Under the pieces are notes generated by a model. It was given only the letters and a program-made list of their open reading frames with translations, was not told where the DNA came from and did not search any database. A stretch of 64,000 nucleotides of DNA from a virus (taxonomy: Duplodnaviria > Heunggongvirae > Uroviricota > Caudoviricetes), in the IMG/VR virus record IMGVR_UViG_2778261161_000002. The stretch is one strand, 5' to 3'. The position numbers were made by a program, and so were the translations under genes. Shown here piece by piece: positions 9,833-51,396 of the stretch. Numbering within the stretch: position 1 is the first letter of the stretch; every line of letters begins with the position of its first letter.

Positions 9833-9886
9833 CCTGTGTGTCTACAAAGCATCCCAATGATCGGAAAATGCTCGCTCGATGATTTG

Positions 9887-9916
9887 TGTTAGAAAATTAA
9901 TTTGCTGTTTCTAAAT
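9887..9916. promoter_or_regulatory. paired TGTTAGAAAA / TTTCTAAAT motif (operator-like site B)
   Basis: motif family member ahead of the c4/icd/ant module. Confidence 0.4.
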
Positions 9917-10094
9917 CGGAATGTATGATCTGCATCATCGACTGAAGTCATCCATTGCTGAAATTTTTAGTTGATCTTCCATGTTTTCAGGCTTATATTC
10001 ATGCCGTCGTAGCAAATTCTGCGACCAGGTTTGACAGCCTGAATGTTAGTGCGGACAACCGCAGATTTCCGATATTGCGGTATTTTTGTGTCCG

Positions 10095-10215
10095 TAAACC
10101 GCGTTACGCCCGAATTATGGTGGGGCGTGATGGGGAGGCTTCGGCCTGCTGGTCTCACTAACGCCAGTCTGTCAACCCTGTCACGTCCTGCCACCTGTTT
10201 GACAGCGGGTAGCAG
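10095..10215 (+). ncRNA. c4-like antisense RNA region of an immI-type module
   Basis: GGTCTCACTAACGCC (10151-10165) is complementary to the direct repeats CCTGAATGTTAGTGCGG (10037-) and CCTGTTAGTGAGGCC (10224-); the latter overlaps the icd RBS; exact RNA ends unknown. Confidence 0.4.
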
Positions 10216-10245
10216 GTTGTTAAACCTGTTAGTGAGGCCGTAACT

Positions 10246-10470
10246 ATGGTTAATGCCAATCCTTGCTCACGTCCAGAATTCATCTGGCGTTTCCACTCCC
10301 TGCAAAAACACTGCGATCACTTCGCAATTGCCGCAACCGAAAAAGAAGCCCGTTCTCTGATCCCTGATCAGCATGGTGTTCTTACTGGTCGTTTCTCTAC
10401 TTCCCCACAACCAAACACTAATCCCTGGTATCGCAATATTACCAATCCCGGCATTGCGGAGGCACACTGA
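10246..10470 (+). CDS. icd: Icd-like small protein
   Basis: 74 aa ORF overlapping (ATGA) the antirepressor start; paralogue at 50240..50455. Confidence 0.45.
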   Translation: MVNANPCSRPEFIWRFHSLQKHCDHFAIAATEKEARSLIPDQHGVLTGRFSTSPQPNTNPWYRNITNPGIAEAH

Positions 10471-11177
10471 TGGATATCTGCATTCTTGAAAAGCCATCAA
10501 TGACCAGCATTGAGATCGCGGAGCTGGTGGGAAAACGTCATGACAATGTGAAGCGTACCATTGAAACATTAGCCGAATCCGGCGTTATTGTTCGTCCTCA
10601 AATTGAGGATGAACCAAAAATAGATGTAATGGGGCGTTCTCGATTAATTCAGGTGTTCCGATTTAGCGACGAGCAAGGCAAACGAGACAGTATCATTGTA
10701 GTCGCACAGCTTTGTCCTGAGTTTACTGCCCGGCTGGTGGACCGCTGGCGCGAACTGGAAGAACAAGTACGCCAGCCGTTGACCGAAATAGAGATGATCG
10801 CCGCAATGGCTGCAAATGCAGTTCAGCAGCAAAAGCGGCTTCATGCTGTTGAGTCAAAGGTTAGCCAGGTCGCTGAAACCGTCGAGCAAATCAAGAAGGG
10901 CAATATGCCAGATGGTTACATTGGCTACCGCCAGCTGGCGGCGAAATGCGGCCTGACTGAAGCCAAATGTCGCAACCTTGTCAACGCTTACCGGATTCCC
11001 ACCGATACACATGAGTTTTTAACTCCAGAGGGGGTATTGTCGCGTCGTTCCATCGTGGCCTTATCTCCCTTCATGAATGCTTTTAACCGGATGATGTCGG
11101 AGGCTGAACACCGAGGAAAACGCTGGTATCACCCCAAAATGGGGCAATTCCAGGTGATCGGTTGGGGAGGTGAGTGA
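10470..11177 (+). CDS. ant: Rha-family antirepressor-like regulator
   Basis: 235 aa; N-terminal SIEIAELVGKRHDNVKRTIETL matches the Rha domain signature as recalled; paralogue at 50455..51396. Confidence 0.55.
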   Translation: MDICILEKPSMTSIEIAELVGKRHDNVKRTIETLAESGVIVRPQIEDEPKIDVMGRSRLIQVFRFSDEQGKRDSIIVVAQLCPEFTARLVDRWRELEEQVRQPLTEIEMIAAMAANAVQQQKRLHAVESKVSQVAETVEQIKKGNMPDGYIGYRQLAAKCGLTEAKCRNLVNAYRIPTDTHEFLTPEGVLSRRSIVALSPFMNAFNRMMSEAEHRGKRWYHPKMGQFQVIGWGGE

Positions 11178-11382
11178 TGGACATCATGCAGGCGGTAAAA
11201 AAAATCAGGGAAGGACAGGCTGAAGTGTGCCGCCGTAAAGCATGGAGTGTTGGTGTATGGGCCTGGCCTGATAATTACTCTACTACCGGATGGTTTTGTA
11301 TTAATGGACTCCAGATCCGGGAAGTTGATTTATCGACGGCTGATATAGTCGGTAATGATTGGATCGTGACTTGAAGCGTGAT

Positions 11383-11407
11383 GCCCCGGCCTGGCCGGGG
11401 CTTTTTT
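11383..11407. terminator. bidirectional intrinsic terminator
   Basis: GCCCCGGCC-T-GGCCGGGGC followed by TTTTTT. Confidence 0.7.
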
Positions 11408-11892
11408 CATGCCTCATTAGTTGAGGTTGCTGCGTCTCCGACTGGTAACAGAGCGGTATTGTGTGGTTCGCCAGCAGGCCAGCGATAGCCAGACACTCTT
11501 GATGTTGGGAATGCGCGAATATTAACCGCATCCCCCTGGTTCCCACCCAAGACAAGCAGATCGCCATTGGCGCGGCGTCCGACAACGAAGCCTACGTGCC
11601 CACCGCCTACGCGGGTAAATACAACGATACATCCGTATGCCGGTGTATCTAATTTCTCGCCCCAATCCAGATAGGATTTTGCCGACTCAAATCTTGTTGA
11701 GCGGATGCCTACACGTTCCAGCATTGCACCGACAAATGCTGCGCACCACGGCGTTTCATCGTCTTTAATTCCGCCGCGCTTGATGTCGCGCCAGAACTGA
11801 ACGATTTCAGGGTTGTGTTTAGCGCCTTTTATTTCAGTCAGGCCAATGTGCTTACGGGCTTCAATTAGCCAGCGAGGTTCAATGTTTGCCAT
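11407..11892 (-). CDS. NlpC/P60-CHAP-like cysteine peptidase (phage-associated)
   Basis: 161 aa; Cys in PWCAAFVG and His in GGHVGFVVG spaced as in CHAP-type peptidases. Confidence 0.45.
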   Translation of the reverse strand: MANIEPRWLIEARKHIGLTEIKGAKHNPEIVQFWRDIKRGGIKDDETPWCAAFVGAMLERVGIRSTRFESAKSYLDWGEKLDTPAYGCIVVFTRVGGGHVGFVVGRRANGDLLVLGGNQGDAVNIRAFPTSRVSGYRWPAGEPHNTALLPVGDAATSTNEA

Positions 11893-23312: not shown

Positions 23313-23389
23313 GATGGTGTAGCTCAGTAGGATAGAGCAGCAGCCTTCTAAGCTGTCGGTCGGTGGTTCGAATCCATCCACCATCGCCA
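23313..23389 (+). tRNA. tRNA-Arg (anticodon UCU)
   Basis: hand-folded cloverleaf: 7-bp acceptor GATGGTG/CACCATC, anticodon loop CTTCTAA, T-loop TTCGAAT, encoded CCA; resembles E. coli argU. Confidence 0.85.
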
Positions 23390-23391
23390 AT

Positions 23392-23464
23392 GCCGGTTTA
23401 GCTCAGTTGGTAGAGCGCCTGCCTTGTAAGCAGGATGTCAGCGGTTCGAGTCCGTTAACCGGCA
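23392..23464 (+). tRNA. tRNA-Thr (anticodon UGU)
   Basis: acceptor GCCGGTT/AACCGGC, anticodon loop CTTGTAA, T-loop TTCGAGT. Confidence 0.85.
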
Positions 23465-24629: not shown

Positions 24630-24705
24630 GGCCCTTTAGCTCAGTGGTTAGAGCAGGCGACTCATAATCGCACGGTCACCGGTTCAAATCCGGTAGGGGC
24701 CACCA
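24630..24705 (+). tRNA. tRNA-Ile2 (anticodon CAU, ileX-like)
   Basis: near-identical to E. coli ileX over the D and anticodon arms; encoded CCA. Confidence 0.8.
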
Positions 24706-49927: not shown

Positions 49928-50094
49928 AATACTGACTGTTGCGCCCTGGCATTATCGTGGGGTATATTTCTACGGCACCTTAGAAAAACGGGTGCCGGGA
50001 TTGGAACCCCGGATAATGCAAAAGGCGACACAGACGCCGAAAGCGTCTTTTCTTGTGTCATGCCATCGCACAGCCATACGTAGCGTTTAGCTCA

Positions 50095-50215
50095 GAGATC
50101 AATGGTAGTGCTGGCTGGGCTGCCGAAAGGCAGGCCGGTTCCCTTTTGCGCCGGTAGTTCCAACCCAGTCAGTGCTACCGCCATTGAGATTGGAACCTCA
50201 CGCGGTAGCTCCTTA
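50095..50215 (+). ncRNA. second c4-like antisense RNA region (distinct specificity)
   Basis: GGTAGTTCCAACC (50152-) complementary to repeated GATTGGAACC elements at 50000 and 50189; same layout as 10030-10240 with different sequence. Confidence 0.35.
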
Positions 50216-50239
50216 AATTAGCAAAAGGAGGCTGCCAAT

Positions 50240-50455
50240 ATGGCTACTATCCCTACCCCAACTCATTCTGAATTTATCTGGCGTTTCTATTCCTGCCAAA
50301 AACACCTGTATATCTGCGTCATGGCTGCAACCGAAGCAGAAGCTCGTTCATACCTTCCTGAAGAACCCTGCATTTTTGCCGCACGCTTCACTCTTGATGC
50401 GATGGAGATCCTCAATTACTGGAATCTGCCAATGAACTGCGTGGAGGTGCACTGA
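50240..50455 (+). CDS. icd: Icd-like small protein (copy 2)
   Basis: 71 aa; paralogue of 10246..10470. Confidence 0.45.
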   Translation: MATIPTPTHSEFIWRFYSCQKHLYICVMAATEAEARSYLPEEPCIFAARFTLDAMEILNYWNLPMNCVEVH

Positions 50456-51396
50456 TGAATCTGTCCATCTCTCAAAAAGCGACAATGACCAGCATTGAGA
50501 TCGCGGAACTGGTAGGAAGTCGCCAAGATAGTGTGAAGAGAACTATCGAAACACTGGCTAAAAAGAGTGTGATCCAATTTCCACAATCTGTGGAAATTGA
50601 AAATAAACAATCAGTTGGCCCTCGTCGATTTTCCAAGGCTTACATCTTTGAAGGCGAACAAGGCAAGCGCGATAGTATCATTGTCGTCGCACAGCTCTCT
50701 CCGGAATTCACCGCCCGGCTGGTGGACCGCTGGCGCGAACTGGAGAATGCCAGGGGACCGTTAAAATCAAAAGCCGAAATCCTGGCTGAAATGGCGCAAA
50801 TGCATCTTGAGCATGAACGCCGGATCAACGCCGTAAATGCCCAGGTAGCCGAGGTATCAGCACAAGTATCGATGGTCGCTGAAACACTCGAGCAAATAAA
50901 GAAAGGCAATATGCCGGAAGGCTACATTGGCTACCGCCAGCTGGCGGCGAAATGCGGCCTGACTGAAGCCAAATGTCGCAACCTGGTTAACGCTTACCGG
51001 ATACCCACTGATACGCATGAGTTTTTGACTCCCGACGGTTTGCTTGCGCGACGCTCAATTGTGGCCCTGGCCCCCTTCCGGAAAGCCTTTAAGCAGGTTA
51101 TGTCGGAGGCAGAACCACGCAACAAACGCTGGTATCATCCAAAGATGGGGATGTTTCAGGCAATCCACCATCCTGTGCCTGAAAGTCCAAAGGCAAACCT
51201 GTCGTTGCATACCGCCAGAGAGAGGATTAAAACAGGGTATGCAATCGTATGCCGTCGAGCATCTTGGCCTGAAGGTGTATGGGTATGGCCCGAAGGTGGA
51301 TCACGAAAGCACTGGCGCACTATCCGGGATGGGAAAATCCATGCGATTGATTTAGCTCCAGAGGATGTTGTTGCTACGGACTGGATTGTTAGTTAA
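50455..51396 (+). CDS. ant: Rha-family antirepressor-like regulator (copy 2)
   Basis: 313 aa; N-terminal and central regions nearly identical to 10470..11177, different C-terminus. Confidence 0.55.
   Translation: MNLSISQKATMTSIEIAELVGSRQDSVKRTIETLAKKSVIQFPQSVEIENKQSVGPRRFSKAYIFEGEQGKRDSIIVVAQLSPEFTARLVDRWRELENARGPLKSKAEILAEMAQMHLEHERRINAVNAQVAEVSAQVSMVAETLEQIKKGNMPEGYIGYRQLAAKCGLTEAKCRNLVNAYRIPTDTHEFLTPDGLLARRSIVALAPFRKAFKQVMSEAEPRNKRWYHPKMGMFQAIHHPVPESPKANLSLHTARERIKTGYAIVCRRASWPEGVWVWPEGGSRKHWRTIRDGKIHAIDLAPEDVVATDWIVS

What the first reader, a model, noticed from the sequence alone, without database searches (positions are those of the whole stretch)
9990..11407. immI-type antisense-RNA / Icd / antirepressor module (copy 1)
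Direct repeats CCTGAATGTTAGTGCGG and CCTGTTAGTGAGGCC flank a complementary element GGTCTCACTAACGCC. The second repeat overlaps the icd RBS, and icd overlaps a Rha-type antirepressor. This is the architecture of P1 c4 RNA control (processed antisense RNA acting in cis on its own transcript).
Basis: partly seen in the sequence, partly recalled or inferred. Interest (0 to 1): 0.45.

Follow-up and report, generated by a model that had tools for sequence, protein, structure and literature searches.

The report
P1-type c4 antisense-RNA immunity operon
This is an ordinary copy of the well-known phage P1 "immI" switch, in which a small processed antisense RNA (C4) blocks translation of a cell-division inhibitor and a putative antirepressor; it sits in a D6-like plasmid prophage of E. 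coli where it has already been described.

Summary
Rfam places a C4 antisense RNA at 10113-10198 (66.3 bits, threshold 45). It places the a1/b1 target motif at 9993-10045 (54.4 bits, threshold 46.7). Positions 9986-10357 are 93% identical to the P1 c4-icd region. The 77-nt C4 (10119-10195) differs from P1 C4 by one base.

A second set is also present: a1 10031-37, a' 10169-75 and a2 10199-205. In 54 distinct related sequences, seven b' variants and two a' variants co-vary with both target sets. All cells pair, against 27-45% in slid controls.

b2 covers the icd Shine-Dalgarno sequence. icd, a Rha-domain protein and a 65-aa ORF are linked by TGATG overlaps and end at a strong terminator.

Differences from P1:
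- The antirepressor is Rha-type and lacks the KilAC domain of Ant1/2.
- No P1 C1 operator is present.
- repL lies upstream.

The window is 99.9% identical here to plasmid pE2863-2 and 93.6% identical to phage D6. A 2019 paper already notes two c4/icd regions in D6-like prophages. Verdict: already known, low interest. The only open point is the IsrK-like leader that carries a1/b1.

The parts
9887..9897 (-). Candidate operator of the D6-type C1 repressor (ATTTTCTAACA). Its membership of the module is tentative.
   Evidence: The motif WTTTTCTAACA (up to 1 mismatch) occurs 15 times in the window against 3.2 expected, and 0 of 100 shuffles reach 15. The P1 operator consensus is absent from the window. 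The role is inferred, not tested.
9971..9999 (+). Sigma-70 promoter TTGATC-17-TATATT, equivalent to P1 P1c4 (former P51b). The inferred transcription start is near G10006.
   Evidence: Found by the promoter scan. It aligns with the annotated P1 P1c4 -35 and -10 hexamers.
9993..10045 (+). c4-a1b1 leader motif. It has hairpin 1 (10006-10025) and hairpin 2 (10026-10041), with a1 in the loop of hairpin 2.
   Evidence: Rfam RF03163, 54.4 bits against a gathering score of 46.7. The fold is shown.
10031..10037 (+). a1 target (UUGACAG), complementary to a'.
   Evidence: Mapped from the P1 annotation. It co-varies with a' (GC/AU at two positions, 29 against 25 sequences) and all cells pair.
10045..10052 (+). 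b1 target (GUUAGUGC), complementary to b'.
   Evidence: Mapped from the P1 annotation. Six of 7 pairs carry double-sided changes and all cells pair.
10059..10087 (+). Leader intrinsic-terminator-like hairpin (CCGCAG 10059-10064 pairs with UUGCGG 10075-10080) followed by a U tract (10083-10087). This is the IsrK-like 3' end.
   Evidence: The isrK model RF01394 aligns to 10006-10087 including its terminator stem and U run, at 43.5 bits, below the gathering score of 50. The centroid fold contains the hairpin. One compensatory change (CCGCT/AGCGG) appears in the most divergent relative, L104. Function has not been tested.
10119..10195 (+). C4 antisense RNA, 77 nt, defined by homology to the mature P1 species.
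   Evidence: Rfam RF01695 at 10113-10198, 66.3 bits against 45. It is 76/77 identical to the annotated P1 misc_RNA c4. The minimum free energy is -42 kcal/mol with z = -4.17, and the fold places b' in a hairpin loop and a' in a single-stranded bulge.
10154..10162 (+). b' recognition loop (CUCACUAAC). C10154 is a substitution private to this window.
   Evidence: Pairs with b2 and b1. C10154 is T in all other 122 copies and in the nearest plasmid. No exact 55-mer exists in PLSDB or in 5,426 E. coli genomes.
10169..10175 (+). a' recognition element (CUGUCAA) in the internal bulge of C4.
10199..10205 (+). a2 target (UUGACAG).
   Evidence: Mapped from the P1 annotation. It co-varies with a' and all cells pair.
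10228..10237 (+). b2 target (GUUAGUGAG, 10228-10236) overlapping the icd Shine-Dalgarno GAGG (10234-10237).
   Evidence: Mapped from the P1 annotation. Six of 9 pairs carry double-sided changes and all cells pair. The predicted b'/b2 duplex is -20.1 kcal/mol.
10246..10470 (+). icd, encoding a 74-aa Icd-like cell-division inhibitor.
   Evidence: NCBIfam NF033153, 40.3 bits against 25. phrog_1426, E 6.5e-39. The 5' half is 93% identical to P1 icd at the DNA level.
10470..11177 (+). Putative antirepressor of 235 aa with an N-terminal Rha domain. Its start overlaps the icd stop (TGATG).
   Evidence: Pfam PF09669, 37.2 bits against 29.9. phrog_63 'anti-repressor Ant', E 6e-47. It is 67% identical to the copy-2 paralogue. 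Function is inferred.
11177..11374 (+). 65-aa ORF whose start overlaps the ant stop (TGATG). It is homologous to the C-terminal 65 residues of the copy-2 Ant.
   Evidence: BLASTP gives 40% identity, E 1e-17, to residues 249-313 of the 313-aa copy-2 protein. phrog_7385, E 1.7e-49.
11383..11407 (+). Intrinsic terminator of the operon (8 G-C pairs followed by TTTTTT).
   Evidence: Terminator scan and fold.

Best explanation
This is a P1-type immI operon carried by a D6-like plasmid prophage. The proposed mechanism runs as follows.

1. A constitutive sigma-70 promoter (9971-9999) transcribes a single RNA. It holds a structured leader with target sites a1 and b1, the C4 precursor, target sites a2 and b2, and then icd, a Rha-domain putative antirepressor and a 65-aa ORF. 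It ends at the terminator at 11383-11407.
2. The precursor is processed to a 77-nt C4 RNA (10119-10195). In P1 the 5' cut is made by RNase P.
3. The hairpin loop b' (10154-10162) and the bulge a' (10169-10175) of C4 pair with b2 (10228-10236) and a2 (10199-10205). The targets can lie on C4's own transcript or on transcripts from a superinfecting phage of the same specificity.
4. This pairing occludes the icd Shine-Dalgarno sequence.
5. Without icd translation the downstream genes are not expressed. They are coupled to icd through the TGATG overlaps, and in P1 the loss is reinforced by Rho-dependent termination.
6. The prophage repressor is therefore left unopposed and lysogeny and immunity are maintained.

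The recognition sequences are P1-type in both a and b. This copy is therefore predicted to share immI specificity with P1. It should be orthogonal to P7, to the D6 reference phage and to the second module in the same window (C4 at 50098-50185).

Shown here: homology, RNA structure, complementarity and its co-variation, gene order and gene overlaps. Inferred from P1 work and not tested here: processing, translational block, polarity and the antirepressor activity of the Rha-type protein.
For: - Rfam C4 and c4-a1b1 hits exceed their gathering scores.
- Positions 9986-10357 are 93% identical to the P1 c4-icd region, which carries experimentally based annotation of c4, a1, b1, a2, b2 and the promoters.
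- The C4 fold is stable (-42 kcal/mol, z = -4.17) and presents b' in a loop and a' in a bulge.
- Seven b' variants and two a' variants occur among 123 copies, each with exactly matching b1/b2 and a1/a2.
- All cells pair and 8 pairs in each set show double-sided changes, against 27-45% pairing in slid controls.
- b2 overlaps the SD GAGG, whose last base lies 8 nt before the icd ATG.
- The Rha domain and PHROG 63 'anti-repressor Ant' hits are.
- Both gene junctions are TGATG overlaps.
- The promoter and the terminator were both found by the scans.
- Cross-pairing with copy 2 is predicted to be weak, -5.5 and -10.0 kcal/mol against -15.0 and -20.1 for the cognate pairs.
- The literature describes C4 as the antisense repressor of ant and as the basis of P1/P7 heteroimmunity (PMC8198154, PMC12197685). 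It also records c4, icd and antirepressor homologues, present twice, in the D6-like plasmid pYU39_89 (PMC6799933).
Against: - No expression data exist for this element.
- The downstream protein lacks the KilAC (ANT) domain of P1 Ant1/2 and shows no pairwise similarity to it.
- Close full-length homologues (65% identity) sit directly after cro in a lambdoid prophage and are annotated only as DNA-binding proteins. The antirepressor function is therefore not secure.
- The P1 C1 operator and the C1-controlled promoter P51a are absent. The link to the main repressor circuit may differ from P1.
- A terminator-like hairpin lies between b1 and c4 (10059-10087). Transcripts must read through it for C4 to be made at all.
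Confidence: 0.85

Rival explanations
1. Add-on or alternative role for the upstream sites. Part of the transcripts stop at the leader terminator (10059-10087) and give a short RNA of about 82 nt (about 10006-10087). This RNA displays a1 in a hairpin loop and b1 single-stranded. Like IsrK of Gifsy-1, it would act in trans as an anti-C4 decoy and so activate icd and ant translation. The switch would then be a three-RNA balance between leader, C4 and mRNA.
For: The isrK model aligns end to end with 10006-10087, including the terminator and U run, at 43.5 bits. In copy 2 and at seven further isrK-C4 pairs in six divergent loci (Stx phage, phiP27, P4, RCS47, PPyecE with two, P7), an isrK hit lies directly upstream of every C4 hit; it exceeds the gathering score in all but P7, where it scores 43.7 bits. 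a1 and b1 co-vary with a' and b' as strictly as the downstream targets do, so pairing with C4 is under selection. Short IsrK was shown to activate translation of the downstream orf45-anrP in trans, and a processed RNA, STnc1160, arises just downstream of it (PMC4825925).
Against: The copy-1 leader scores below the isrK gathering threshold. The hairpin is modest (6 pairs including a G.U, with a 10-nt loop) and the simple terminator scan missed it. No short leader RNA has been reported for P1 to my knowledge. Co-variation of a1 and b1 is equally explained by autoregulation or by a role in folding or processing in cis.
Confidence: 0.3
2. P4-like mechanism. C4 pairing with the upstream (a1/b1) and downstream (a2/b2) sites acts mainly by causing premature transcription termination, as the CI RNA of P4 does with seqA and seqC, and not by blocking ribosome binding.
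For: The C4 family model hits the P4 immunity region (74.9 bits), with an isrK/c4-a1b1-type leader upstream. The systems are therefore homologous. PMC4825925 summarises the P4 CI/seqA/seqC termination mechanism. P1 work, as I recall it (Biere, Citron and Schuster 1992, not re-read here), also found reduced ant transcription when C4 acts.
Against: Here b2 sits exactly on the icd SD and this overlap is retained in all 54 relatives, which points to translational occlusion as the primary event. In P1 the transcriptional effect was attributed to polarity that follows the translational block. No intrinsic terminator lies between b2 and ant.
Confidence: 0.2
3. The RNA switch is as described, but the protein it controls is not an antirepressor. 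It is a Rha/Roi-type DNA-binding regulator with another role in lytic development, or a toxic effector.
For: It has only an N-terminal Rha/winged-helix domain and no KilAC domain. Homologues are annotated as Roi or DNA-binding proteins, and one occupies a post-cro position in a lambdoid prophage with no C4 RNA upstream of it; the C4 units in that locus lie downstream of the gene.
Against: It belongs to PHROG 63 together with P1 Ant1. It occupies the ant position after icd in both modules of the window. The analogous Rha-type AnrP downstream of IsrK induces the Gifsy-1 prophage (PMC4825925).
Confidence: 0.25
4. The repeats are chance matches, or the region encodes a protein: the old 'c4 ORF', here the 66-aa ORF at 10043-10243.
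For: A mechanical ORF spans the region. An early P1 record annotates c4 as a CDS (X15639).
Against: The Rfam structural hits are. Strict RNA-level compensatory changes occur at three separate sites. The ATG of the ORF lies inside b1 and is lost in the D6-type, CATTCGT and CACAAGT variants, where b1 begins AATAC. There is no SD upstream of it.
Confidence: 0.01

Closest known systems
Bacteriophage P1/P7 immI operon (c4 antisense RNA - icd - ant1/ant2)
   Same: The promoter is homologous to P51b. The a1, b1, a', b', a2 and b2 elements are identical to P1 in position and sequence, and the C4 RNA is 76/77 identical. b2 lies over the icd SD, and the 5' half of icd is homologous. The next gene overlaps the icd stop. 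The specificity is P1-type (b' CACUAAC, a' CUGUCAA), not P7-type (CACAAUC, CUGCUAA).
   Different: The antirepressor gene is Rha-type, with no KilAC domain and no internal ant2 start. An extra coupled 65-aa ORF follows it. The C1 operator Op51 and promoter P51a are absent. repL lies upstream, whereas in P1 simABC lies upstream and kilA-repL downstream. One private base change (C10154) lengthens the b'/b2 pairing.
immI regions of phage D6 and D6-like plasmid prophages (MF356679; pYU39_89; pE2863-2)
   Same: The gene order is the same: repL, c4, icd, Rha-type ant, small ORF, then a convergent peptidoglycan hydrolase and darB. Identity is 93.6% to D6 and 99.9% to pE2863-2. Two c4/icd regions per genome are noted in PMC6799933.
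   Different: The D6 reference carries a different b specificity (b' CGUAAGU, b1/b2 ACUUACG) on the same scaffold. The two phages are therefore predicted to be heteroimmune at immI. None of the records consulted annotates the c4 RNA gene.
IsrK sRNA / orf45-anrP locus of Salmonella prophage Gifsy-1 (Rfam RF01394)
   Same: The leader has two hairpins and a partial intrinsic terminator, followed by a processed RNA and a translationally coupled small ORF plus a Rha-type antirepressor-like gene. The isrK model aligns to the leaders of both modules in the window.
   Different: The copy-1 leader is below the isrK gathering score (43.5 against 50). The published IsrK mechanism is activation by the short RNA and does not invoke a C4-type repressor RNA (PMC4825925).
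Satellite phage P4 immunity (CI RNA with seqA, seqB and seqC)
   Same: It has a processed antisense RNA flanked by upstream and downstream complementary sites on the same transcript. The Rfam C4 and isrK/c4-a1b1 models hit the P4 immunity region.
   Different: In P4 the outcome is premature transcription termination of the replication operon. There is no icd or ant. P4 is only distantly similar to copy 2 (about 70% over 187 nt) and less similar to copy 1.

Membership tests
P1/P7 immI c4-icd-ant operon | C4 RNA homologue with the conserved three-helix fold (Rfam RF01695 at or above the gathering score) | tested here: met
   66.3 bits against 45 at 10113-10198. The minimum-free-energy fold matches the consensus, z = -4.17.
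P1/P7 immI c4-icd-ant operon | a' and b' of C4 are complementary to a2 and b2 downstream, with b2 over the ribosome-binding site of the first ORF | tested here: met
   a' 10169-75 pairs with a2 10199-205. b' 10154-62 pairs with b2 10228-36, which overlaps GAGG 10234-37. All of 864 cells pair in 54 relatives and 8 pairs are compensatory.
P1/P7 immI c4-icd-ant operon | Upstream duplicate targets a1 and b1 in a structured leader (Rfam RF03163) | tested here: met
   54.4 bits against 46.7 at 9993-10045. All of 756 cells pair with a' and b'.
P1/P7 immI c4-icd-ant operon | An icd-like ORF immediately downstream of b2 | tested here: met
   NF033153, 40.3 bits against 25. The DNA is 93% identical to P1 icd over the first half.
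P1/P7 immI c4-icd-ant operon | The antirepressor gene is translationally coupled to icd | tested here: inconclusive
   The stop and start overlap as TGATG at 10468-10472. The overlap is shown; functional coupling is not testable with these tools.
P1/P7 immI c4-icd-ant operon | The antirepressor is homologous to P1 Ant1/Ant2 (KilAC/ANT domain, PF03374) | tested here: not met
   P1 Ant1 has PF03374 (106.5 bits). The window protein has only PF09669 Rha. BLASTP gives E 0.31. Both match the broad PHROG 63.
P1/P7 immI c4-icd-ant operon | A C1 operator (Op51) and a C1-controlled promoter (P51a) upstream of the constitutive P51b | tested here: not met
   The P51b equivalent is present. There is no P1 operator with up to 3 mismatches anywhere in the window. 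Sequence upstream of about 9986 is unrelated to P1. A different dispersed motif at 9887-9897 may take its place.
P1/P7 immI c4-icd-ant operon | Processing of the precursor to a 77-nt RNA (RNase P at the 5' end) and Rho-dependent polarity on ant | not testable with these tools
   This needs RNA mapping or in vitro cleavage. The flanks of the predicted mature RNA are identical to P1.
IsrK sRNA (Rfam RF01394) | Match to the family model at or above the gathering score (50 bits) | tested here: not met
   The copy-1 leader 10006-10087 scores 43.5 bits. The copy-2 leader 49975-50053 scores 59.4 bits.
Phage regulatory protein Rha (Pfam PF09669) | An N-terminal Rha domain above the Pfam gathering score | tested here: met
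   37.2 bits against 29.9, residues 11-98. The narrower TIGR02681 model is not met (18.1 against 45.95).

The most novel reading that the evidence does not exclude
The a1/b1 leader of P1-type immI operons may not be a passive duplicate target. It may be an IsrK-type small RNA, ending at the partial terminator at 10059-10087, that titrates C4 and so sets the threshold for antirepressor expression. On this reading P1 c4, P4 CI/seqA and Gifsy-1 IsrK/STnc1160 are one family of three-RNA switches (decoy leader, processed repressor RNA, target RBS). A phage carrying two orthogonal copies would have two independently tunable locks on induction.
Probability: 0.3. Interest if true: 0.5.

Novelty: already known. 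Interest (0 to 1): 0.15.

Why it matters
Its practical value is for annotation and prediction. The c4 RNA gene is not annotated in the D6 record or in the D6-like plasmid record consulted, and the recognition loops allow immI immunity groups to be read from sequence. This element should be co-immune with P1 at immI and heteroimmune to P7 and to the D6 reference.

The survey done here shows at least seven b and two a specificities. They are shuffled freely between P1-type and D6-type backbones. That pattern is a clean natural example of programmable RNA-RNA specificity evolving by three-site co-variation.

The link between the a1/b1 leader and IsrK gives a concrete, testable idea for the long-unexplained upstream sites. 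Neither point changes the picture of how the system works.

Tried and rejected
1. The first IMG/VR pattern scan used one N too many in the loop and found nothing. The corrected pattern gave 120 loci.

2. A search for the P1 C1 operator consensus in the window gave no site with up to 3 mismatches. P1-type C1 control of this operon is therefore rejected. A different dispersed motif was found by k-mer comparison of intergenic regions but was not pursued to proof.

3. I considered whether the private C10154 substitution marks something special. Background divergence from the nearest plasmid is about 0.5% (70 differences in 13.5 kb), so one SNP is unremarkable. It does strengthen the b'/b2 pairing by about 2.5 kcal/mol.

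4. I considered the 66-aa ORF across c4 (10043-10243) as a gene. It was rejected because its ATG lies in the hypervariable b1 element and is absent in several specificity types.

5. I looked for an antiterminator/terminator alternative (GCGG 10051-54 with CCGC 10059-62, against the 10059-10080 hairpin) that C4 binding at b1 might toggle. Folding gives no clear support and the idea remains speculation.

6. I tried to read the D6 genome paper (Gilcrease and Casjens 2018) and the P1 genome paper (Lobocka 2004). Neither is held. What those papers say about D6 immI could not be checked.

7. I tested whether a full-length Ant homologue in a lambdoid prophage also sits behind a C4. It does not: it follows cro, and two isrK-C4 units lie downstream of it. 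This weakens the functional inference for the protein.
Full report
**Observation**

Their cores, GTTAGTG at 10045 and 10228, are complementary to CACTAAC at 10156. A 7-mer match is not significant alone, since each 7-mer occurs four times in the window. The case rests on independent evidence.

- A whole-window Rfam scan places a C4 antisense RNA (RF01695) at 10113-10198 on the + strand, with 66.3 bits against a gathering score of 45.
- The same scan places the 'a1, b1 targets of C4' motif (RF03163) at 9993-10045, with 54.4 bits against 46.7.
- It also finds a second C4 at 50098-50185 (76.7 bits), preceded by an isrK hit at 49975-50053 (59.4 bits).

**Identity of the element**

The 1.57-kb region is 93.6% identical to phage D6 (MF356679) over its full length. 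Positions 9986-10357 are 93% identical to the c4-icd region of phage P1 itself. In PLSDB it is 99.9% identical to E. coli plasmid pE2863-2 (NZ_AP018804.1), and 110 plasmid records carry at least 80% of it.

The surrounding genes are those of D6-like plasmid prophages: portal, protease, repL, then the module, then a convergent CHAP/TIGR02594 peptidoglycan hydrolase and darB.

**Anatomy, mapped from the experimentally based P1 annotation (with the sequence)**

| Feature | Coordinates | Note |
|---|---|---|
| Promoter | 9971-9999 | TTGATC-17-TATATT; equals P1 P1c4/P51b; also found by the scan |
| Leader hairpin 1 | 10006-10025 | |
| Leader hairpin 2 | 10026-10041 | a1 (UUGACAG, 10031-10037) lies in its loop |
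| b1 | 10045-10052 | Single-stranded |
| Terminator-like hairpin | 10059-10080 | U tract to 10087 |
| C4 RNA | 10119-10195 | 77 nt |
| a2 | 10199-10205 | |
| b2 | 10228-10236 | Overlaps the SD GAGG (10234-10237) |
| icd | 10246-10470 | 74 aa; NF033153, 40.3 bits against 25 |
| Rha-domain protein | 10470-11177 | 235 aa; PF09669, 37.2 bits against 29.9 |
| Small ORF | 11177-11374 | 65 aa |
| Terminator | 11383-11407 | 8 G-C pairs |

Both gene junctions are TGATG overlaps.

C4 folds into the family structure. It has a long closing stem and a GGCUUCGGCC hairpin. A second hairpin carries b' (10154-10162) in its loop, and a' (10169-10175) sits in a single-stranded bulge. The energy is -42 kcal/mol with z = -4.17.

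**Is the complementarity conserved?**

A pattern scan of IMG/VR for the C4 scaffold with a free loop returned 120 loci. Together with P1, D6 and the window, this gives 123 copies. They carry seven other b' loops besides the window's own single-base variant. Each b' variant has exactly matching b1 and b2. Two a' variants (CUGUCAA, CUGCUAA) have exactly matching a1 and a2.

I then tested an alignment of the 54 distinct sequences (A2).

- The downstream pairing (b'-b2 and a'-a2, 16 pairs) forms standard pairs in all 864 cells, and 8 pairs show changes on both sides. Versions slid by 1-3 columns pair in 32-45% of cells.
- The upstream pairing (a1-a' and b1-b', 14 pairs) also forms standard pairs in all 756 cells, with 8 compensatory pairs. 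Slid versions pair in 27-40%.

The interaction is therefore under strong selection at all three sites.

P7 carries b' CACAAUC and a' CUGCUAA. D6 carries b' CGUAAGU. The window carries the P1 combination.

Typing of the flanks by tblastn shows that the specificity cassettes are shuffled between two backbones:

- P1-type, with simA upstream and KilAC-type Ant1 downstream.
- D6-type, with repL upstream and Rha-type Ant downstream.

**Mechanism**

By homology with P1/P7, C4 is cut out of the operon transcript. It pairs through a' and b' with a2 and b2 and hides the icd ribosome-binding site. This prevents expression of icd and of the coupled antirepressor. Because C4 is diffusible, it also confers immI immunity on superinfecting phages of the same specificity. 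PMC8198154 and PMC12197685 summarise Citron and Schuster 1990. RNase P processing and Rho-dependent polarity are from my own knowledge of Hartmann et al. 1995 and Biere et al. 1992, which I did not re-read here.

Shown here: homology, fold, complementarity, co-variation, overlap with the RBS, and gene overlaps. Not shown: processing, repression, polarity and protein function.

Predicted duplex energies indicate that the two modules in the window are orthogonal. Cognate pairs give -20.1 and -15.0 kcal/mol, and cross pairs give -5.5 and -10.0.

**Differences from P1**

1. The controlled protein is not a homologue of Ant1/2 by domain content. P1 Ant1 has the KilAC/ANT domain (PF03374), whereas the window protein has only a Rha/winged-helix N-terminus. 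BLASTP gives E 0.31. Both do fall in the broad PHROG 63, 'anti-repressor Ant'.
2. A 65%-identical full-length homologue sits directly after cro in a lambdoid prophage, with no C4 RNA upstream of it. The antirepressor role is therefore an inference.
3. The P1 C1 operator and promoter P51a are missing. Sequence upstream of about 9986 is unrelated to P1.
4. repL lies upstream, not downstream.
5. A third coupled ORF follows ant.

**The leader**

The isrK model (RF01394) aligns to 10006-10087, including its terminator stem and U run, at 43.5 bits, which is below the gathering score of 50.

In copy 2 and at seven further isrK-C4 pairs in six divergent loci, an isrK hit lies directly upstream of every C4 hit. 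It exceeds the gathering score in all but P7, where it scores 43.7 bits. The loci are an Stx phage, phiP27, P4, the second copy in RCS47, PPyecE_EH1910 (twice) and P7. IsrK is therefore the a1/b1 (P4 seqA) leader of C4-type units.

In Gifsy-1 the short IsrK RNA ends at a leaky terminator. It activates translation of the downstream orf45-anrP in trans. A processed RNA, STnc1160, arises just downstream of it. The authors compared the locus with P4 CI but did not mention P1 c4 in the sections I read (PMC4825925).

This suggests, but does not show, that the copy-1 leader could act as a decoy for C4. The strict co-variation of a1 and b1 is compatible with that role. It is equally compatible with autoregulation or with a role in folding in cis.

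**Novelty**

PMC6799933 states that the D6-like plasmid pYU39_89 has an ImmI-related region with homologues of the c4 antisense RNA, icd and an antirepressor. It also notes a second region with c4 and icd. Curated Rfam families cover the RNA parts. The additions made here are:

- the full map of parts;
- the three-way co-variation statistics;
- the assignment to P1 specificity;
- the catalogue of specificities;
- the link between the leader and IsrK.

Noticed in passing
window 49975-51396: There is a second, paralogous immI module. It has an isrK-type leader (49975-50053, 59.4 bits), a C4 (50098-50185, 76.7 bits), icd2 (50240-50455) and a 313-aa Rha-type Ant (50455-51396). Its recognition sequences differ from copy 1: a' GUUCCAA with a1/a2 UUGGAAC, and b' CCUUUUGC with b1/b2 GCAAAAGG. 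Ant is 67% and Icd 45% identical to copy 1.
   Followed up: partly
window 11177-11374 versus 51199-51393: The 65-aa ORF that follows ant in copy 1 is homologous (40% identity, E 1e-17) to the C-terminal 65 residues of the copy-2 Ant. The domain is therefore a separate coupled gene in one module and fused in the other.
   Followed up: yes
window 10154: C10154, in the 5' flank of the b' loop of C4, is private to this window. It is T in the nearest plasmid, where it is the only difference within 9850-11420. It is also T in all 122 other copies examined, and the exact 55-mer is absent from PLSDB and from 5,426 complete E. coli genomes. The change converts a U.G into a C-G pair opposite G10236 of the icd SD, worth about -2.5 kcal/mol.
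   Followed up: yes
window 5864, 8686, 9887, 19789, 20832, 22237, 26147, 30580, 31990, 44200, 48772, 49428, 53197, 61248, 61267: The dispersed motif WTTTTCTAACA (up to 1 mismatch) has 15 sites against 3.2 expected, and 0 of 100 shuffles reach 15. Sites lie upstream of repL, of c4 copy 1 and near copy 2. It is a candidate operator for the D6-type C1 repressor, since the P1 operator consensus is absent from the window.
   Followed up: partly
loci L124, L126, L127, L128, L129 and L125; window 9993-10087: The Rfam families isrK (RF01394) and c4-a1b1 (RF03163) hit overlapping sequence, and an isrK hit precedes every C4 hit examined, including the P4 CI region. Even so, the output shows no clan for isrK, while C4 and c4-a1b1 are listed under clan CL00128. 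Prophage PPyecE_EH1910 has two tandem isrK-C4 units.
   Followed up: partly
IMG/VR loci L003-L122: On one conserved C4 scaffold there are seven b' loops, apart from the window's own single-base variant (CACUAAC, CACAAUC, CGUAAGU, CAUUCGU, CAUGUAC, CACAAGU, CUUGAAC), and two a' variants. They are combined almost freely and are shared between P1-type and D6-type backbones.
   Followed up: yes
window 23313-23464 and 24630-24702: There are three tRNA genes on the + strand (Rfam tRNA, 68-75 bits), as expected for a P1/D6-like phage.
   Followed up: no
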